Sequence record: PV191315.1
From: Escherichia phage vB_EcoM-P3322
DNA length: 64,000 bases
Direction: 5' to 3' (one strand)
Under the pieces are notes generated by a model. The model was not told the origin of the DNA. It did no database searches and worked only from the letters and a program-made list of their open reading frames with translations. This document shows, piece by piece, positions 21,592-28,049 of the stretch; within the stretch, counting starts at the first letter, position 1; the number at the start of each line of letters is the position of its first letter. Made by a program: the position numbers and the translations under genes.

Positions 21592-21921
21592 ATGGAAATT
21601 ACTACAGAACAAGCCCTTATCGACGAGGGTCGTAAAATCTTAGAAAAGTATTTAGGGGAGATTCATAAAACCCCTGGCTATTTGGGTTGGAGAATTGTTG
21701 AAGCTGTAGATTTCCTTCCTCGTAACAGTAAAAACGTCGAAATGCGATCTCTTTTCTTATTAGTAAAGGTGGATGGGGATACGCCTTTTAAAGATGCCGC
21801 AGAACATATTGAAAAAGTTGAAGAGAAAGCTTATGCAGAATTTGCCGATCTTGTTTTAGAACAAGAGATTGAAGGAAAGGTGAATATTTTTATTTTCTTA
21901 GATTTTGAGGAGGATAAGTGA
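21592..21921 (+). CDS. hypothetical protein
   Basis: RBS GAGGAGGAAGG. Confidence 0.55.
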   Translation: MEITTEQALIDEGRKILEKYLGEIHKTPGYLGWRIVEAVDFLPRNSKNVEMRSLFLLVKVDGDTPFKDAAEHIEKVEEKAYAEFADLVLEQEIEGKVNIFIFLDFEEDK

Positions 21922-22661
21922 TCATACACAGAGAAATTACTGTTAAAAGCGATCAAGATCTTTTTATAATTGGAGATCTACACGGTTGTTATAATTTGTA
22001 TGAAAAAGGAAAGGCAAAGTTAGGTATCCGAGATACAGATGTGGTTGTATCTCTAGGAGATCTTACTGACCGTGGAAAGCAAAACTTTCGTTGTGTTTTA
22101 GAATTTACTCGTAAACACAATCGCTACGCTATTCGTGGCAATCATGAAGACATGATGATTAAAGGTATGCTGGAAGGAGATCGTAGCTACTACGAGTGTT
22201 GGTATCAAAATGGAGGATATACGGTCTTTGAAGAATGTGGTGAAGAAGGAGCTACAGCCTTAGCAATGATGACAGAAGATTTACCTGTTGTTCTCATTGT
22301 TAACTACAGAGGCATGAAACTTGCGTTTATTCATGGTGGGTATCCATCTTCTTTGGAATATCTCCCTGTAACAGATATTCCAGAATACATTTCGAAGATG
22401 ACAAAAACACAGGAAAACCGTTTTGCTGAAGCACTTATGTGGGACAGAGATATGGTAGACTGTGCTAAAGAGGGAATGAAACTTCCTGTTGTGATGGGTG
22501 TGGATTATGTGTTTCATGGACACTCTTATGTAAAAACACCTATTATCAATGCGAATCGTGTTTATATGGATACTGGATCTGTGTTCAATAATAACTTAAC
22601 ATTTGCTTATTTCGATATGGACGGTGGTCTTCAATTTTATTCAACTCTTGAGGAGGATTAA
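21918..22661 (+). CDS. Ser/Thr protein phosphatase (calcineurin-like metallophosphoesterase)
   Basis: GDLHG, GDLTDRG, GNHE motifs. Confidence 0.8.
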   Translation: MIIHREITVKSDQDLFIIGDLHGCYNLYEKGKAKLGIRDTDVVVSLGDLTDRGKQNFRCVLEFTRKHNRYAIRGNHEDMMIKGMLEGDRSYYECWYQNGGYTVFEECGEEGATALAMMTEDLPVVLIVNYRGMKLAFIHGGYPSSLEYLPVTDIPEYISKMTKTQENRFAEALMWDRDMVDCAKEGMKLPVVMGVDYVFHGHSYVKTPIINANRVYMDTGSVFNNNLTFAYFDMDGGLQFYSTLEED

Positions 22662-22969
22662 TGTATAAGATTACAATTATTCAAAGTGTAGGTAATATCC
22701 GTAAAGAAGTTATCTTAGAAACAGAAGATGTTAATCTTGTTCGTGAGATTGTTCTTAAGGAAGATAACCTGCAAGCTGTAGAATCAGATGCACCGAATCT
22801 TATGGTGGATCAAGAATATTCTGAACTTCGTCGTATTTTTGAAGAGATTCAGAAGAAAGAAACACAACCTACCATAAAACCTTTTGGTCCTTATGATCCG
22901 AGCAATCCTAGCAGTCCTTGGATCATGAGAAATACGGAACCCTATACACCTTTTGAAATTACTTGTTGA
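22661..22969 (+). CDS. hypothetical protein
   Basis: RBS GAGGAGG; ATG overlaps stop. Confidence 0.55.
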   Translation: MYKITIIQSVGNIRKEVILETEDVNLVREIVLKEDNLQAVESDAPNLMVDQEYSELRRIFEEIQKKETQPTIKPFGPYDPSNPSSPWIMRNTEPYTPFEITC

Positions 22970-22976
22970 GGTGATT

Positions 22977-23558
22977 ATGGCAGAACTGTTCTATACGGGA
23001 GTTGGAAGTAGGGACATATCTGAAGAAGAGTGGGCTTTGATGGTAGGCATAGGGAAATGGCTTTCAAACCTTGGGTTTAAATTACGGTCTGGGAAGGCAG
23101 AGGGTAGTGATTCTGCTTTTGAAACAGGTGTCCAAGAGTCTGAAAATCCTACTAACAAGGAGATTTATGTTCCTTGGGAAAATTTCAAAGGTAATCAGAT
23201 TCCAGGTGATGTTATTGTTCTTGCAAAACCAGATACAATGAACTATGCTATCTCTGTGCAATGGATCAAAGATGTTCACCCAGCTTATGAAAAGCTTAAG
23301 CAGGGTGCTAGAAAATTGCACCAACGTAATGTGCATCAAGTGTTAGGCAGAGATTTGGAGAATCCTGCTCCATCATGTTTCTTGTTGGCTTGTGCTAATA
23401 CTGATAAATATGGAGATGCAAAAGGTGGAACAGCTACGGCTTGGAAGATAGCTAAAGCCAATAATGTTCCTTGTTTAAACATTCGTGGGAAAACAAAACA
23501 AGAGATTTACGATTTTCTACGACCTTTGGTAATGAGGGCGATAACAAGTGATTCCTAG
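22977..23558 (+). CDS. DprA/SLOG-like Rossmann-fold protein
   Basis: GVGSRDIS...G..L..LGFKLRSGKAEGSDSA resembles DprA/LOG core; ATG 22977 after GAGGTGA. Confidence 0.45.
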   Translation: MAELFYTGVGSRDISEEEWALMVGIGKWLSNLGFKLRSGKAEGSDSAFETGVQESENPTNKEIYVPWENFKGNQIPGDVIVLAKPDTMNYAISVQWIKDVHPAYEKLKQGARKLHQRNVHQVLGRDLENPAPSCFLLACANTDKYGDAKGGTATAWKIAKANNVPCLNIRGKTKQEIYDFLRPLVMRAITSDS

Positions 23559-24060
23559 ACGTAAACGTGGTGAACAAAGAACAAACTTGGCAGAAATCTT
23601 AGATTACAACATGGTTAATGATGTGACAAAAGAAATTCTGCCTGTTGTAGAAGATATTCTTCGTAGAGGGTTACGATTCTGCTCGGATCGGGTGCATTTC
23701 ATGTGGACACATAAAAGTGACTCCGCTTTGAATTTCTATCCTTTGGACTATACTCTGAACAATACAGAGATGAAAGATATCAACAAATATTTAATGGGAT
23801 ATAAAGATATAACCGAAACTGTTCTTGGAGAATTGGCAGAAATCTTGGCTAACGATATCCTTAGAAATATTAATAAGGCTCTTGACAGAAGCCCAGCAGG
23901 AGTAGTAATATCTTTTGCTGTGCCAGATATGGTTAAATATGAGTCTACAATACCTAATAAAGCTTATGCCTTTCTTCGGAGAGACGTTCGTGGAAATGTG
24001 TTGGAGATGGAGTCAAACTACAAGATTGAGGAGGTTTTATGGCAGAGTTCGGATCAGTAA
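23548..24060 (+). CDS. hypothetical protein
   Basis: Track ORF; start uncertain (ATG 23608 alternative). Confidence 0.5.
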   Translation: MIPRRKRGEQRTNLAEILDYNMVNDVTKEILPVVEDILRRGLRFCSDRVHFMWTHKSDSALNFYPLDYTLNNTEMKDINKYLMGYKDITETVLGELAEILANDILRNINKALDRSPAGVVISFAVPDMVKYESTIPNKAYAFLRRDVRGNVLEMESNYKIEEVLWQSSDQ

Positions 24061-24329
24061 CAAGTTTTGAAAGTAACTTCGTTACCGCTTGGGAAGCTTG
24101 GGATGAAATGGGTGTTGGGGAACTTTATTTTTACAATGTAACACTACGCCCAGAATATGCTTACCTGGTACCAGAAGGAACAGTTCAAATTGGCATGTAT
24201 TTGTCTTCTCAAGACGGTGTTGTTCAATTTGAGTTTTATTCTAACACAACGGACAACGAATTTACATACCGCGCATTTCATGTCAACATGTCTTTAGGAG
24301 AGGAGAAATTTTATGACGACCAAGTTTAA
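24039..24329 (+). CDS. hypothetical protein
   Basis: RBS GAGGAGG. Confidence 0.5.
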   Translation: MAEFGSVTSFESNFVTAWEAWDEMGVGELYFYNVTLRPEYAYLVPEGTVQIGMYLSSQDGVVQFEFYSNTTDNEFTYRAFHVNMSLGEEKFYDDQV

Positions 24330-24510
24330 AACAGTAGAAGAAGCCGTAAAAGCAGCTTATGAGGCTTTAGCGGAAGCAGAGCAGTTAGCAGACGAGACTG
24401 GTGAAGGTTTCAGTTTCTCCCCTGAATATGGGATGGGTGGTTATTATGATCCAGAAGATGAAAATGAGAATACTGGAACAAATTGGCATCCATCTTCTTT
24501 AAGTTGTTAA
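24313..24510 (+). CDS. small acidic protein, C-terminal W-x-SS-x-C motif family
   Basis: RBS GGAGAGGAG; C-terminus NWHPSSLSC. Confidence 0.5.
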   Translation: MTTKFKTVEEAVKAAYEALAEAEQLADETGEGFSFSPEYGMGGYYDPEDENENTGTNWHPSSLSC

Positions 24511-24521
24511 TAGGAGGTAAA

Positions 24522-24791
24522 GTGGGAATCGAAGATATCAAAGGTTATAAACCGCATACCGATGACAAAATTGGTAAAGTGAATGCTATTAAAGATGCTG
24601 AAGTTCGATTAGGATTAATCTTTGATGCTCTAATGTCTGAATTGTGGGCTGAACTGGATGATTGTGAAGATTTGGAAGAGTCTACCAATATATCCACCCG
24701 CCTTGACCAAATTTCAATAGCAAAGACTAAGTTGAAAGAAGCTTCTATGTGGGCCTGTCGTTCCGTTTTCCAACCAGAGGAGAAATACTAA
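24522..24791 (+). CDS. hypothetical protein
   Basis: GTG 24522 after TAGGAGG; track start 24483 lacks RBS. Confidence 0.45.
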   Translation: MGIEDIKGYKPHTDDKIGKVNAIKDAEVRLGLIFDALMSELWAELDDCEDLEESTNISTRLDQISIAKTKLKEASMWACRSVFQPEEKY

Positions 24792-25009
24792 TGAGTTATC
24801 GTAATGTTGAAGAATTAACTGAAAAAGCCCAAGCTATTATGGCTTTGGTGGACGAACTTACAAAAGAAGCTGAAGATGCTGGTTTTGGTCTTAGTTTAGA
24901 AGATGACGCAATCTGTTTTGAAGATTGGCAATCCTCTTCTTGTTATGGTGAAGGTGATGATGGTTTCGTTGTTAATTCTCAAGGCGTTTGGCACAGTAGT
25001 AGCTGTTAA
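24791..25009 (+). CDS. small acidic protein, C-terminal W-x-SS-x-C motif family
   Basis: RBS AGAGGAG; C-terminus GVWHSSSC. Confidence 0.5.
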   Translation: MSYRNVEELTEKAQAIMALVDELTKEAEDAGFGLSLEDDAICFEDWQSSSCYGEGDDGFVVNSQGVWHSSSC

Positions 25010-25018
25010 GGAGAGATT

Positions 25019-25291
25019 GTGGAGTCTGAAGGCGAACTGCTGATAAAAAAGAAAGTTAAAGAGATGGAACAAGCACAAAGAAAGTTTCGTAAGGAAATTG
25101 AAGAACTTTGTGAACAGTTTCAGGAACAAGCTTGGATAGGTGACTACGGTAACGGAGAAACTTATTACCCTACAGGAACGCCAGCCGCAGATCACTATAT
25201 TGATTTCATTTGTGAAGATTATGGTGTAGAGTTGGATGAAAATGGTTTAACCACAAGAGGTGTTTGGATCTCTTCTTCCTCAATGTGTTAG
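25019..25291 (+). CDS. small acidic protein, C-terminal W-x-SS-x-C motif family
   Basis: RBS AAGGAGAG; C-terminus GVWISSSSMC. Confidence 0.5.
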   Translation: MESEGELLIKKKVKEMEQAQRKFRKEIEELCEQFQEQAWIGDYGNGETYYPTGTPAADHYIDFICEDYGVELDENGLTTRGVWISSSSMC

Positions 25292-25299
25292 TAAATAAT

Positions 25300-25322
25300 A
25301 ACCCGCTTCGGCGGGTTTTTTA
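25300..25322 (+). terminator. rho-independent terminator
   Basis: aacccgc-ttcg-gcgggtt then tttttt. Confidence 0.7.
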
Positions 25323-25351
25323 TTGACAGGAATCTGGAAGCTTGATAAACT
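25323..25351 (+). promoter_or_regulatory. sigma70-like promoter
   Basis: TTGACA-17nt-TAAACT. Confidence 0.6.
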
Positions 25352-25381
25352 TAACCTATCAACCAATAGAGGAGAAATATT

Positions 25382-26323
25382 ATGGTGTTAATTGGTAGCC
25401 GTGCATTACAAATTCATGCTATGGACATGGGAAAAGACTTGTATCGCCCTTGTGTAGATTTAGATTACCTGTGTACAGAACAAGAGTGGGAAGAATTATC
25501 AAAAATGTTCTCTCAAGACGAGTTTGTTGAACTTGTAGAACGTAAAGGGAACAAAGGCCATGTCAAAATGATAGCTGGTGCACATTTGGAATACGATATT
25601 GCTTCTCAAGGAGATAGCACAGAAGCTTTGATTAGTTATTGTGAAGATTCTGATGATGTTCGTCGAACTTACGCTGGACATGTTGTTGCTCCTTTAGATG
25701 TGCTCTACCTTCTTAAAATGAGTCATCGTTTTAAAAAGGATAGTCCTCACTTCTTTAAAACTATGAAAGATATTCATTTCATGCGGTCACTGGGCGCAAA
25801 GATCCCAGAAAATCTTAAGAGTATTTATGAGTTGCGTGAGAAAGAAACATACACTTACTCTCATCCTAACTTAAACGTAAAAAGTAAAGAGTTCTTTAAA
25901 GGTGACGAGGTTCCGTATGTTTATGATCATGATTCTATCCATGAAGCAATCGCGTTAATGGATGCTCCAGCATATAAATCTTATATGAAAGATGGAAGTG
26001 AAGTTATGACCAGCAAAGAAAAGTTTTTTGCTCAACCAAAACATGTGCGCCTGTTAGGTGTTTATGAAGAAGCGTGTGTTTTGGCTTTGGAACGTTCACA
26101 AATTCCTTTCGGTGGAGAGATCGGAGGTCCAACCCCTAAGCAAAGTTTTATAATGGCTTTATCTAAAGTCTGCACATCCATCACTAGTGGTTGGTTTAGG
26201 GAATATGCTTGGGAAAACTTTTATGTTGTTATTAAGCTATATGAAAACATGGGCGAAAACGACTATGTTGAACGTTTTAAAGCTAATCAACATGTAGTAA
26301 AGCCTTTTGAAGGAGGTTATTAA
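25382..26323 (+). CDS. hypothetical protein (possible Pol-beta-type nucleotidyltransferase fold)
   Basis: RBS AGAGGAG; N-terminal IGSRA...DLD pattern, weak. Confidence 0.55.
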   Translation: MVLIGSRALQIHAMDMGKDLYRPCVDLDYLCTEQEWEELSKMFSQDEFVELVERKGNKGHVKMIAGAHLEYDIASQGDSTEALISYCEDSDDVRRTYAGHVVAPLDVLYLLKMSHRFKKDSPHFFKTMKDIHFMRSLGAKIPENLKSIYELREKETYTYSHPNLNVKSKEFFKGDEVPYVYDHDSIHEAIALMDAPAYKSYMKDGSEVMTSKEKFFAQPKHVRLLGVYEEACVLALERSQIPFGGEIGGPTPKQSFIMALSKVCTSITSGWFREYAWENFYVVIKLYENMGENDYVERFKANQHVVKPFEGGY

Positions 26324-26324
26324 T

Positions 26325-26720
26325 ATGTGTGGATATCTTTCAGAAAGTTATTTCAAAGTGACGCATGAGGATTTAGAAAAAGCACGATTGAAACTGACAG
26401 CTATTATTGAATACTCTAATACTGTTGAACACAGATTAAAGACTACTAAAGTATCTGTTCCTTGTTGGTTAGGTTTACGGCATAAAATAATGTCTCAACA
26501 TGACCATGTTGTTCGAGAGATGCATGGTTGGTGTTGGTTTCACGATGTGGCTCTGCATTTTGGTTATATTACAGAAGAAGAGCATAGATTCTGTGAACTA
26601 ACATATCGTATTCCAACCCTTCACGATTTAGATTTGTGGAAGAAAGCAAACGAGATTTTTCTTACAGAAAGTGATTGGCGTAAAGTTATGGCTTGTCTTG
26701 AATGGAGGGGTAATGAGTAA
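26325..26720 (+). CDS. hypothetical protein
   Basis: ATG 26325 after GAAGGAGG. Confidence 0.5.
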   Translation: MCGYLSESYFKVTHEDLEKARLKLTAIIEYSNTVEHRLKTTKVSVPCWLGLRHKIMSQHDHVVREMHGWCWFHDVALHFGYITEEEHRFCELTYRIPTLHDLDLWKKANEIFLTESDWRKVMACLEWRGNE

Positions 26721-27396
26721 AACAGTTTTGTCTATGTTTGACGGATCTGGGATCATGGTGTTACGTTATGCCGAAGCAGGTCACAAGTGTTTTTGTGTAA
26801 ACGCTGATGAAGGGGATCACGGTAAATACGAGGTTAGGATGGAGCACCCAAACATAACCTATGTGAATGCCTGGATAGATTCTACATTCAACCCTGAAGA
26901 TCATGGGATACCTAAACCCGATATTATTTTTGGATTTCCACCTTGCACTATGTTAGCAGGTAGTGGTAGCAAACACGAACGTAGCACAGAGGAATTAGAT
27001 GAAGCTTTAGCTAATATTCGTGTAGTGGAAGCTTTGGGTAACAAATATAATGTTCCTTGGATGATTGAAAACCCAGTAGGTAAACTTTCAACCTTATGGC
27101 GTAAACCCGATTTTTACTTTGATCCTTATGAGTATGGTGGGTATTTGTTTGAAGAGGAAGGAAGCTTTCATCCTAAAATGCCTACCCGTGATGGGTATAC
27201 AAAGAAAACTTGTATTTGGCACGGCAATGGTTTTGTTCAACCAGTGAAGAAACCAGTAGATCATATAGGCTGCTTCTGGGGTTGGAAAAGCTTAGGCGGA
27301 GCTAGTGCAAAAACAAAACAACTTAGATCCCTAACCGCACGTGGTTTTGCTCGTGCCGTGTTTTTGTCTAACAATCTTCTAGATAAGGAGAAATAA
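26713..27396 (+). CDS. C5-methyltransferase-like protein (short, PPCT in place of PCQ)
   Basis: FDGSG (motif I-like), FGFPPCT (motif IV-like), ENPVG (motif VI-like); ATG 26713 after GGAGGGG. Confidence 0.5.
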   Translation: MSKTVLSMFDGSGIMVLRYAEAGHKCFCVNADEGDHGKYEVRMEHPNITYVNAWIDSTFNPEDHGIPKPDIIFGFPPCTMLAGSGSKHERSTEELDEALANIRVVEALGNKYNVPWMIENPVGKLSTLWRKPDFYFDPYEYGGYLFEEEGSFHPKMPTRDGYTKKTCIWHGNGFVQPVKKPVDHIGCFWGWKSLGGASAKTKQLRSLTARGFARAVFLSNNLLDKEK

Positions 27397-28049
27397 TGTC
27401 AAATTCAAAACCAATAGTTGCTTATCAAGTAGATCGTAATGATGGTGAAGGAAGTGTTATTATTTTCAGTACACACGGTCTTGAGGCTCGTCGAAAAGGT
27501 GCATATCGTTTAGAATGTGAGTTTGAAGACTGCACAAGCCACCGTGTCAAACAATTCGATCAATATGCTGATAAAGGCTTCGTCCCTATCAAAGCCTTAC
27601 TGGAAGATGGTTGGTGGGTATATTCTGCTTTTGATTACTCAAGACTGGAGGAGTCAGCCTCGTGCGCCTCCGAGATCGAATATGATGATTACTATGACAC
27701 TCTCTACCTTCCAGAATGGCTTGTCTTTTCTCCTGATGAAAGAAGTGTCTGGAAAACGTGGGAAGAAATGGAGAGACATGCATATAGCATCAATGAAGCT
27801 TTAGATCGTAAAGCTTGGTTTATTGAGGCAGTAAAGGCGGCATACCCCCAATTCTCATTCTGTGATTTCACTGGTGGCCCAGGATACATTACACATACAG
27901 CCTCTTTTGAGTTCCCTGGTTCACGTTATAAGGGTAATGTTTATTGGGACTGGGATGAAAATAAACAACCTTCGGCTCAAGACTTCCGTTGCTATGTTTG
28001 TCAAGGCGATCAAGAAGCCCTTGACAAATACCTACAAAGTCTGGTATAG
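27396..28049 (+). CDS. hypothetical protein
   Basis: RBS AAGGAG; ATG overlaps stop. Confidence 0.55.
   Translation: MSNSKPIVAYQVDRNDGEGSVIIFSTHGLEARRKGAYRLECEFEDCTSHRVKQFDQYADKGFVPIKALLEDGWWVYSAFDYSRLEESASCASEIEYDDYYDTLYLPEWLVFSPDERSVWKTWEEMERHAYSINEALDRKAWFIEAVKAAYPQFSFCDFTGGPGYITHTASFEFPGSRYKGNVYWDWDENKQPSAQDFRCYVCQGDQEALDKYLQSLV

What the first reader, a model, noticed from the sequence alone, without database searches (positions are those of the whole stretch)
24313..25291. Three consecutive small acidic proteins sharing a C-terminal W-x-SS-x-C tail
ORFs 24313..24510, 24791..25009 and 25019..25291 end in NWHPSSLSC, GVWHSSSC and GVWISSSSMC respectively. A conserved C-terminal Trp/Ser/Cys tail on otherwise divergent acidic proteins suggests a shared targeting or modification signal (for example lipidation, a degron or a metal site).
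Basis: seen in the sequence. Interest (0 to 1): 0.45.

Follow-up and report, generated by a model that had tools for sequence, protein, structure and literature searches.

The report
Phage tail-motif proteins tied to nucleotidyltransferase
The three small acidic proteins are paralogues of a large, uncharacterised phage-only family that ends in an invariant Trp-x-x-Ser-Ser-x-x-Cys tail and is almost always encoded just upstream of one MenT-like nucleotidyltransferase gene, which points to an undescribed two-part phage module.

Summary
ORFs 24313-24510, 24791-25009 and 25019-25291 end in WHPSSLSC, WHSSSC and WISSSSMC. These are the only three such ends in the window, against 0.25 expected by chance.

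They are not unrelated proteins sharing a tag. All three hit phrog_899. A profile finds 984 clusters (50% identity) of 60-150 aa acidic proteins. In 248 of 253 sampled members the chain ends exactly in Cys, with W at -7 and Ser at -4 and -3 essentially invariant.

Best reading, inferred and not shown: the tail is where these paralogues engage the nucleotidyltransferase, either as a Ser-hydroxyl acceptor or as a substrate-mimicking regulator. Lipidation or a degron has no support. An Acb2-like anti-CBASS gene is inserted in the array.

The parts
24313..24510 (+). Tail-motif protein 1 (65 aa, pI 4.05). Canonical family member: helix, GFSFSPEYGMGGYY hairpin, acidic loop, tail W-H-P-S-S-L-S-C at 24484-24507.
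   Evidence: phrog_899 E 1.4e-13; AF2 pLDDT 90 with helix 8-29, strands 33-38, 41-45 and 58-60, and a terminal turn 61-64 at about pLDDT 68
24522..24791 (+). Acb2/Tad1-hairpin-domain gene (anti-CBASS sponge family) inserted inside the array. Not a family member.
   Evidence: PF24729 E 1.3e-19, 70.6 bits against a cut-off of 27. The related locus L004 has the three tail ORFs packed contiguously with no room for it. In T4-like loci its homologue lies about 5 kb away.
24791..25009 (+). Tail-motif protein 2 (72 aa, pI 4.05). Double-motif subfamily: internal DWQSSSC-YGEGDDGF (24926-24943) and a short terminal tail W-H-S-S-S-C (24989-25006).
   Evidence: phrog_899 E 7e-6; orthologues with both motifs occur in T4-like phages, for example L036 7394-7624 at 51% identity
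25019..25291 (+). Tail-motif protein 3 (90 aa, pI 4.40). Has DYGNGETYY in place of YGMGGYY; canonical tail W-I-S-S-S-S-M-C at 25265-25288.
   Evidence: phrog_899 E 5.1e-14; orthologues P0033-P0052 and the T4-like L036 6840-7115
25300..25351 (+). Terminator-like hairpin AACCCGCTTCGGCGGGTT followed by a T-run (25300-25317), then a sigma-70-like promoter TTGACA-17-TAAACT with a TG extension (25323-25351). Both lie between the array and the nucleotidyltransferase gene.
   Evidence: These are consensus matches only and function is not shown. In many other phages the gap is 1-50 nt.
25382..26323 (+). DUF7277+DUF7275 protein (313 aa): a Pol-beta-type nucleotidyltransferase with a MenT/AbiEii-like fold. 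It is the constant partner gene of the tail-motif proteins.

Best explanation
The three ORFs are diverged paralogues of one large family found only in phages. Members are small, acidic, cytoplasmic alpha/beta proteins whose hallmark is an invariant C-terminus, G-W-x-[P/S/A]-S-S-x-x-C-COOH. They form the variable half, 1-6 copies, of a conserved two-part module. The constant half is the MenT/AbiEii-like nucleotidyltransferase (NTase) encoded just downstream (25382-26323).

Shown here: the paralogy, the invariance of the tail, the requirement that the chain end at Cys, the two-way gene linkage, the NTase fold with intact catalytic residues, and restriction to phages.

Inferred: the semi-flexible tail is the element through which each paralogue engages the NTase. 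It would dock by its free C-terminus into the substrate groove. Most plausibly one of the two invariant Ser hydroxyls (or the Cys thiol) is an acceptor for nucleotidyl transfer. Alternatively the tail acts as a substrate-mimicking regulator of an enzyme whose ancestral substrate is an RNA or tRNA 3'-OH. One enzyme would thus serve a panel of diversified small effector or adaptor proteins expressed early in infection, probably in a counter-defence or tRNA-centred conflict.

My graded confidence: one family, 0.97; genuine module linkage, 0.95; functional partnership, about 0.7; tail as the interface, about 0.45; covalent Ser or Cys nucleotidylation, about 0.2.
For: Family and tail:
- phrog_899 hits for all three ORFs.
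- A profile search finds 984 clusters at 50% identity (E<=1e-3), and almost every match ends at the protein's last residue.
- 248 of 253 members end in Cys. W sits at -7 in 246 of those 248, S at -4 in 247 and S at -3 in 248.
- W, S, S and C are invariant in a 92-sequence alignment with 18% mean column identity.
- Apart from the N-terminal helix and strand, the tail is the only feature common to all subfamilies; YGxG occurs in only 74 of 183.
- In the AF2 model the Trp is in the third strand, while the last five residues have lower confidence (about 68), consistent with an exposed tail.

Linkage:
- 73 of 80 NTase-seeded viral loci have 1-5 tail ORFs on the same strand within 3.5 kb upstream. 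That is 203 of 1696 ORFs there against 7 of 15339 elsewhere (Fisher p 8e-197).
- 58 of 60 family-seeded loci have the NTase downstream on the same strand, often 1-50 nt away.
- Between the window and 10 divergent loci, only the NTase and the tail ORFs are consistently shared.
- The same paralogue subfamilies (ORF1-, ORF2- and ORF3-type) recur in Phapecoctavirus and T4-like phages.

Asymmetry: distant NTase homologues exist without tail genes, next to tRNA arrays, RNA ligase or PNK, whereas tail genes almost never occur without the NTase. This fits the tail proteins being accessories of the enzyme.

NTase chemistry: the best fold matches are enzymes that nucleotidylate hydroxyl groups, either the tRNA 3'-OH (MenT1, MenT3, MenT4) or antibiotic hydroxyls (ANT(2''), LnuA). 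The catalytic GS..DxD..E residues are invariant.

Precedents recalled from established knowledge, not tested here: NTase-fold enzymes modify proteins in GlnD/GlnE (Tyr), in MNT-HEPN type VII toxin-antitoxin systems (Tyr), and in CitX/MdcG, which attach a prosthetic group to a Ser of a small acidic carrier protein.
Against:
- In this window a terminator-like hairpin and a separate promoter lie between the array and the NTase gene, so co-transcription is not required here.
- Seven of 80 NTase loci lack upstream tail genes, and one tail gene (L139) is followed by an AAA_33 P-loop kinase instead.
- The ORF2 subfamily keeps a conserved internal copy of the motif, so a free carboxylate is not always needed.
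- The loci sampled are not phylogenetically independent.
- Known protein-modifying NTases mostly target Tyr, not Ser.
Confidence: 0.45

Rival explanations
1. The tail proteins are autonomous anti-defence binders. Under this reading they are small acidic sponges or decoys (nucleic-acid or tRNA mimics, or ligand sequesterers). Trp, Ser-Ser and the terminal Cys would form a ligand-binding, metal-binding or oligomerisation site. The NTase would act in the same pathway, for example by repairing tRNA ends or by making or destroying a nucleotide, without touching the tail.
For: An Acb2/Tad1-type sponge gene is inserted in the array, and a Tad4 gene lies about 5 kb upstream in L002. The proteins are small, acidic and fast-evolving, with multiple paralogues, which is typical of counter-defence genes. 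Distant NTase homologues sit with RNA-repair genes and tRNA arrays, which suggests the enzyme has an RNA substrate of its own.
Confidence: 0.25
2. The tail is purely structural. The Trp strand and a C-terminal cap are simply the folding core of a tiny domain. The gene linkage reflects co-inheritance of a mobile early-gene cassette and no functional coupling.
For: AF2 places W58 in the third beta-strand of the sheet with high confidence. All the divergent tail ORFs share the same helix-hairpin-strand architecture.
Against: Folding does not explain invariant Ser-Ser, a Cys that must be the last residue (248 of 253) or the variable positions between them. The final residues are the least confident part of the model. 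Only the NTase and the tail genes travel together, while every other neighbour differs.
Confidence: 0.12
3. One reading: the tail is a signal read by host machinery, whether for lipidation, as a C-terminal degron for a host protease, or as a localisation or packaging tag.
For: Strict positioning at the extreme C-terminus is typical of motifs recognised through the free carboxylate; this is general knowledge about ssrA, PDZ and TPR ligands.
Against: Bacterial lipidation uses an N-terminal lipobox Cys, and none of the three ORFs begins with a signal peptide. CaaX prenylation needs Cys at -3 and is eukaryotic. No known bacterial degron resembles W-x-x-S-S-x-x-C. A host-directed signal does not explain the obligate linkage to a phage NTase.
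Confidence: 0.08
4. The proteins are RiPP-like precursors. The N-terminal helix would act as a leader and the tail as a core peptide that is cross-linked, for example by an AviCys- or lanthionine-type S-x-x-C-COOH ring.
For: Ser at -3 from a C-terminal Cys is invariant, which is the spacing used for AviCys in epidermin-type peptides (recalled, not tested). Several paralogous 'precursors' sit next to one enzyme gene. There is a sub-threshold NCBIfam hit of ORF2 to a class IV lanthipeptide model (E 0.05, 13.5 bits against a cut-off of 25).
Against: No LanB, LanM, LanKC, LanD, radical-SAM or YcaO gene lies in the neighbourhood: Pfam finds only a metallophosphoesterase, Acb2 and the DUF7275/7277 protein. 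The whole chain is predicted to be a folded domain at pLDDT 90, not a leader plus a disordered core. The NCBIfam hit is far below its cut-off. A Pol-beta NTase is not a known RiPP-tailoring enzyme for such rings.
Confidence: 0.03

Closest known systems
MenAT / AbiE nucleotidyltransferase toxin-antitoxin systems (MenT1, MenT3/TglT, MenT4, AbiEii; DUF1814)
   Different: There is no sequence-level match to DUF1814 or to PADLOC models. The module is found in virulent phage genomes and essentially not in bacterial chromosomes (8 MAG contigs among 185,579 species). The partners are 1-6 paralogous acidic alpha/beta proteins unrelated to MenA or AbiEi. Neither toxicity nor tRNA modification has been shown.
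MNT-HEPN type VII toxin-antitoxin systems and GlnD/GlnE (NTase-fold enzymes that nucleotidylate a partner protein)
   Same: A Pol-beta-fold enzyme acts on a specific hydroxyl of a co-encoded or dedicated protein. This is the chemistry proposed here for the Ser-Ser tail (analogy recalled from established knowledge).
   Different: The acceptor in those systems is Tyr, and the partners (HEPN, PII, glutamine synthetase) are unrelated. No modification has been demonstrated here.
CitX/MdcG holo-ACP synthases with the CitD/MdcC acyl carrier subunits
   Same: An NTase-superfamily transferase attaches a nucleotide-derived group through a phosphodiester to a Ser of a small (about 10 kDa) acidic protein encoded in the same operon (recalled, not tested here).
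   Different: There is no sequence or fold similarity between the tail proteins and CitD or ACP. The acceptor Ser here would lie in a C-terminal tail. No triphosphoribosyl-dephospho-CoA synthase gene is nearby.
Acb2/Tad1/Tad2-type phage sponge proteins
   Same: They are small phage-encoded early proteins in accessory gene islands, and an Acb2-like gene is physically embedded in this array.
   Different: The tail proteins give no Pfam hit to these families and have a different predicted fold. The sponges have no obligatory enzyme partner.
RlaP (PF10127) RNA-ligase-associated Pol-beta NTases of phages
   Same: A phage NTase found near RNA-repair genes, as are the distant DUF7275 homologues (PMC7824862, PMC12776372).
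   Different: The window protein does not match PF10127 at E<=1. No small C-terminal-Cys proteins are reported for RlaP.

Membership tests
phrog_899 (uncharacterised phage protein family) | Significant match to the family HMM over most of the protein | tested here: met
   E 1.4e-13 (residues 3-65), 7e-6 (4-71) and 5.1e-14 (9-90). All three align to the C-terminal end of the profile.
W-x-x-S-S-x-x-C tail family as defined here | Chain ends in Cys, with Ser at -3 and -4 and Trp at -7 (or at -5 in the short subfamily) | tested here: met
   ORF1 and ORF3 are canonical. ORF2 belongs to the W-2-SS-0-C class, which accounts for 32 of 183 unique tail ORFs.
W-x-x-S-S-x-x-C tail family as defined here | Encoded on the same strand directly upstream of a DUF7277+DUF7275 NTase gene | tested here: met
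   The NTase gene at 25382-26323 starts 91 nt after ORF3. The general rule is supported.
MenAT / AbiE (DUF1814) toxin-antitoxin | NTase with a MenT/AbiEii fold and the catalytic motifs | tested here: met
MenAT / AbiE (DUF1814) toxin-antitoxin | Sequence membership of DUF1814/AbiEii, a cognate MenA/AbiEi-type antitoxin, and a bacterial chromosomal or plasmid location | tested here: not met
   No Pfam hit other than DUF7275/7277 and no PADLOC hit. The partners are unrelated small acidic proteins. There are only 8 MAG contigs in 185,579 species genomes.
MenAT / AbiE (DUF1814) toxin-antitoxin | Growth inhibition by the NTase, relieved by the partner | not testable with these tools
   Requires expression experiments.
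Lanthipeptide / AviCys RiPP precursors | Neighbouring dehydratase/cyclase (LanB/C, LanM, LanKC/L) and a LanD-type decarboxylase | tested here: not met
   Pfam scans of the flanking ORFs from 21918 to 28049 show none.
Lanthipeptide / AviCys RiPP precursors | Match to a precursor family model above its cut-off | tested here: not met
   NF038148 scores 13.5 bits against a cut-off of 25.
Acb2/Tad1 sponges | Match to the PF24729 hairpin domain | tested here: not met
   Only the intervening gene 24522-24791 matches. ORF1, ORF2 and ORF3 do not.
Bacterial lipoproteins / CaaX-prenylated proteins | N-terminal signal peptide with a lipobox Cys, or Cys at -3 from the C-terminus | tested here: not met
   The N-termini are charged helices (MTTKFKTVEE, MSYRNVEE, MESEGELL). 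The Cys is the last residue.
RlaP NTases (PF10127) | Match to PF10127 | tested here: not met
   No hit at E<=1.

The most novel reading that the evidence does not exclude
The MenT-like enzyme covalently nucleotidylates the invariant Ser-Ser (or Cys) of the tails, or primes a short oligonucleotide on them. This would turn a panel of acidic, RNA-mimicking proteins into protein-nucleotide conjugates, for example decoys of the tRNA acceptor end, that neutralise tRNA-targeting or nucleotide-based host defences. It would be a new, widespread counter-defence system in phages based on post-translational modification.
Probability: 0.12. Interest if true: 0.9.

Novelty: categorically new. Interest (0 to 1): 0.68.

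Why it matters
The module is common. The NTase occurs in 734 deposited phage genomes and the small proteins in about 1000 clusters at 50% identity. The phages include Phapecoctavirus and many T4-like genera used in phage therapy, as well as jumbo phages. T4 showed neither component in the regions I scanned, including the syntenic slot; this may be why the module has not been studied.

A strictly C-terminal, invariant W-x-x-S-S-x-x-C on up to six diversified paralogues, each tied to one nucleotidyltransferase, is a clear handle for experiments. It could reveal a new protein modification, a new way of regulating MenT-type enzymes, or a new class of counter-defence proteins. It would also give functions to two Pfam DUFs and a large PHROG.

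Tried and rejected
- Pairwise BLASTP of the three ORFs gave only marginal or no alignments. Paralogy had to be shown with profiles.
- A word-indexed homology search with ORF1 alone found only close orthologues.
- The search for related loci with the broad alignment A2 failed because no stretch was conserved enough. A canonical subset, A4, worked.
- PDB sequence searches with both families gave nothing.
- NCBIfam and PADLOC gave nothing meaningful.
- Literature searches for phrog_899, DUF7275/7277, the motif strings, RB69 ORF134c, phage MenT-like NTases and protein AMPylation found no description. RlaP turned out to be a different family, PF10127.
- The upstream 170-aa ORF (23548-24060, ending VLWQSSDQ) looked like a degenerate member but scores -0.1 bits against the family HMM. 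I do not count it.
- YGxG as a second universal motif was rejected; it occurs in only 74 of 183 unique tail ORFs.
- Long family members were checked for fused enzyme domains (Rosetta-stone evidence), and none were found.
- Stop-codon read-through between same-frame neighbouring genes: only a weak enrichment, 47 of 104 against one third, on non-independent data. Not pursued.
- T4: no NTase or tail ORF in 1-50 kb or 60-76 kb, which includes the syntenic e.2-e.6 slot. The rest of the T4 genome was not scanned.

Full report
**What the window is.** The region 23500-26500 is 99.8% identical to Dompiswa phage TSP7_1 and about 99% identical to many Escherichia and Klebsiella phages of the genus Phapecoctavirus (Stephanstirmvirinae). 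All genes there are annotated as hypothetical.

**The observation.** ORFs 24313-24510 (65 aa), 24791-25009 (72 aa) and 25019-25291 (90 aa) lie on the + strand, each behind a Shine-Dalgarno sequence. They end in NWHPSSLSC, GVWHSSSC and GVWISSSSMC.
- A regex for the tail followed by a stop codon hits only these three places in six frames of 64 kb. Shuffled sequence gives 0.25 hits on average.
- Their pI values are 4.05, 4.05 and 4.40.
- The invariant serines are encoded by TCT TCT, by AGT AGT AGC and by TCT TCT TCC TCA respectively. The similarity is therefore maintained at the protein level and is neither a DNA repeat nor an overlap artefact.
- Two corrections to the finding. An unrelated gene (24522-24791) separates ORF1 from ORF2. 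ORF2 also carries an internal copy of the motif, WQSSSC at 24926-24943.

**They are paralogues, not unrelated proteins with a common tag.** Pairwise BLASTP is marginal. All three nevertheless match phrog_899, a family of unknown function, over nearly their full length, with E 1e-13, 7e-6 and 5e-14. None matches Pfam or NCBIfam.
- A profile search of 5.8 billion proteins returned at least 200 homologues.
- An exhaustive profile search of 1.84 billion cluster representatives returned 984 at E<=1e-3 and 588 at E<=1e-10. In nearly every case the profile's last position fell on the protein's last residue.
- Among 253 sampled members, 248 end exactly in Cys. Of those 248, W is at -7 in 246, Ser at -4 in 247 and Ser at -3 in all 248. 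Position -5 is P, S or A, and -8 is Gly in 165. Median length is 78 aa and median pI is 4.35. 169 of the 253 members have a single Cys.
- In a 92-sequence alignment with 18% mean column identity, W, S, S and C are among the six invariant columns.

**Divergent relatives.** Divergent relatives in other phages, up to about 190 aa, keep the helix, the strand and the tail but often lack YGxG, which is present in 74 of 183. The tail is thus the most constant element of a fast-evolving small domain.

The next gene, 25382-26323 (313 aa), matches DUF7275 (E 1e-75) and DUF7277 (E 8e-14). The first two distant homologues of ORF1 whose contigs I looked up were a metagenomic phage contig and Pseudomonas phage phiPsa315. 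Both lie just upstream of a DUF7277+DUF7275 gene, within arrays of three to six ORFs that all end in W..SS..C.

**Testing the linkage in both directions.**
- I fetched 80 viral contigs through the DUF7275 protein. Their identity to the window protein is 41-77%, and contigs range from about 8 to 371 kb, including T4-like genomes of about 170 kb and jumbo phages of about 360 kb. Of these, 73 have 1-5 tail ORFs on the same strand within 3.5 kb upstream.
- The strict tail regex marks 203 of 1696 ORFs in that zone, against 7 of 15339 ORFs elsewhere in the same loci (Fisher p 8e-197).
- The exceptions: four near-identical loci have one tail ORF 6 kb downstream on the other strand. L059 has a seven-tRNA array in the slot instead. 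L070 and L071 show only weak hits.
- In the other direction, 58 of 60 loci fetched through the small-protein family have the DUF7275 gene on the same strand just downstream, commonly 1-50 nt away. One of the two exceptions is cut off by the contig end.
- The linkage is specific to the module. Between window 17-33 kb and ten divergent loci, only the DUF7275 gene (10 of 10) and the tail ORFs are consistently shared.
- The same paralogue subfamilies recur across phage families. ORF2's double-motif type (DW.SSSC-YGEGDDGF ... W.SSSC) and ORF3's type are found in T4-like phages at 39-51% identity. In JS98 the tail proteins are orf129, 128, 127 and 126, and the enzyme is orf122, lying between e.6 and e.2.
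- T4 has no such genes in that slot, nor in the 66 kb I scanned.

**What the partner is.** AlphaFold2 gives pLDDT 92.
- G5-S6, D26-x-D28 and E70, the Pol-beta catalytic signature, are invariant in 37 homologues, along with many basic and aromatic residues in the helical C-terminal domain.
- It is not a sequence-level member of DUF1814/AbiEii, of RlaP (PF10127) or of any PADLOC model.
- It occurs in 734 deposited phage genomes. Among 185,579 species-representative genomes it occurs in only 8 contigs, all from MAGs, so it is essentially phage-restricted.
- Distant homologues in Gordonia, Streptomyces, Ruegeria and Vibrio phages have no tail genes nearby; the first three sit next to tRNA arrays, RNA ligase, polynucleotide kinase or a metallophosphoesterase. 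This hints at an ancestral substrate that is an RNA or tRNA end.

**Interpretation.** The linkage is asymmetric. The enzyme can occur without tail genes, but tail genes almost never occur without the enzyme. This fits the small proteins being accessories of the enzyme. The following features fit a recognition or acceptor site better than a folding core:
- the invariant Ser-Ser;
- the requirement that the chain stop at Cys;
- the variable residues between them;
- the lower model confidence at the very end of the chain.

The enzyme's closest structural relatives all transfer nucleotides to hydroxyl groups. NTase-fold enzymes that modify proteins are also established: GlnD/GlnE, MNT-HEPN type VII systems, and CitX/MdcG acting on a Ser of a small acidic carrier protein. 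Those precedents come from my own knowledge and were not tested here.

I therefore favour a model in which the tail is the interface with the nucleotidyltransferase, either as a Ser (or Cys) acceptor or as a substrate-mimicking regulator. One enzyme would serve a panel of diversified effector or adaptor proteins. Embedded or nearby anti-defence genes (Acb2-like in the window; Tad4 in L002) and the tRNA/RNA-repair associations suggest a counter-defence or tRNA-centred role. Nothing beyond the genomic and structural inference is demonstrated.

**Caveats.**
- The window has a terminator-like hairpin and its own promoter between the array and the enzyme gene.
- The ORF2 subfamily keeps an internal motif.
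- One tail gene (L139) is followed by an AAA_33 kinase instead of the NTase.
- The sampled loci are phylogenetically related.

**Rivals.**
- Autonomous sponges or decoys whose tail forms a ligand, metal or oligomerisation site. This is plausible, but no similarity to any known sponge was found, and it does not easily explain adjacency above 90% in both directions.
- A purely structural tail. This does not explain Ser-Ser or the terminal Cys.
- A host-read signal such as lipidation or a degron. The defining features of lipidation are absent, and a degron cannot be tested here.
- A RiPP-like precursor. No tailoring enzymes are nearby, the protein is predicted to be a folded domain, and the NCBIfam lanthipeptide hit is far below its cut-off.

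**Novelty.** Literature searches for the PHROG, the DUFs, the motif, the RB69/JS98 genes and phage MenT-like enzymes returned nothing that describes this family or the module. The small proteins have no detectable sequence or fold relatives. The module fails the membership tests for the MenAT/AbiE, MNT-HEPN, RiPP and sponge families. I rate it provisionally as a new kind of phage module of unknown function, with the mechanism still to be established.

Noticed in passing
window 24522-24791 (+): An Acb2/Tad1-hairpin-domain gene (PF24729, E 1.3e-19), from the family of anti-CBASS/anti-Thoeris nucleotide sponges, sits between tail genes 1 and 2. The related locus L004 has the three tail ORFs packed contiguously without it, and in T4-like loci its homologue lies about 5 kb away. 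It therefore looks like an insertion into the array.
   Followed up: partly
window 25300-25351: A bidirectional terminator-like hairpin (AACCCGCTTCGGCGGGTT plus a T-run) is followed immediately by a near-consensus extended -10 promoter (TTGACA-17-TG-TAAACT) in front of the nucleotidyltransferase gene. In this phage the array and the enzyme may therefore be separate transcription units.
   Followed up: no
window 23548-24060 (+): The 170-aa ORF two genes upstream (phrog_8569) ends in ...EEVLWQSSDQ. This is a tail-like W-x-S-S without the terminal Cys, preceded by a helix and a GVVISFAVP strand. It scores -0.1 bits against the family HMM, so I do not count it. It could be a degenerate relative.
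   Followed up: partly
L059 6612-7564: In one T4-like contig, seven tRNA genes (Ile, Lys, Glu, Asn, Asp, Met, Gln) occupy the slot directly upstream of the nucleotidyltransferase gene, where other phages have the tail-protein array. No tail ORF was found in that locus.
   Followed up: partly
L139 5956-6761: In a 306-kb jumbo-phage contig, a tail protein with three motif copies (WVSSDC, GWSDSGC, GGWSASSQSC) is followed by an AAA_33 (PNK/KTI12-like) P-loop kinase (PF13671, E 1.7e-9) and not by the nucleotidyltransferase. This is the only clear case of a tail gene without the NTase.
   Followed up: partly
L084 (Gordonia phage WilliamBoone), L085 (Streptomyces phage BillNye), L086 (DSS3_VP1): Distant DUF7275 homologues without tail genes lie beside tRNA arrays, RNA ligases, a polynucleotide kinase or a metallophosphoesterase. 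This suggests an RNA-end function for the enzyme family.
   Followed up: partly
L157 347-535 and 532-717 (T4 tk.1, tk.2): T4 Tk.1 (FEISSEYGDAETYY...) weakly resembles the helix and hairpin part of the family (E 0.0066 in a small search) but ends in a helix and not in the W..SS..C tail. T4 shows no NTase or tail ORF in the 66 kb scanned.
   Followed up: partly
L051, L053, L002 and others: Neighbouring tail genes are often in the same reading frame, separated by one stop codon and a few codons: 47 of 104 non-redundant pairs, against one third expected (p 0.012, data not independent). This probably reflects tandem duplication with preserved spacing. Read-through was not examined.
   Followed up: partly
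L008, L009, L010, L016: Four near-identical contigs have no tail genes upstream of the NTase. They have a single 139-aa tail protein (...YAWCSSSMEC) about 6 kb downstream on the opposite strand.
   Followed up: no
window 21918-22661 (+): A calcineurin-like metallophosphoesterase (PF00149, E 2.7e-13), annotated elsewhere as a Ser/Thr phosphatase, lies four genes upstream of the first tail gene. A homologue is also near the NTase in the jumbo-phage locus L015 (37% identity).
   Followed up: no
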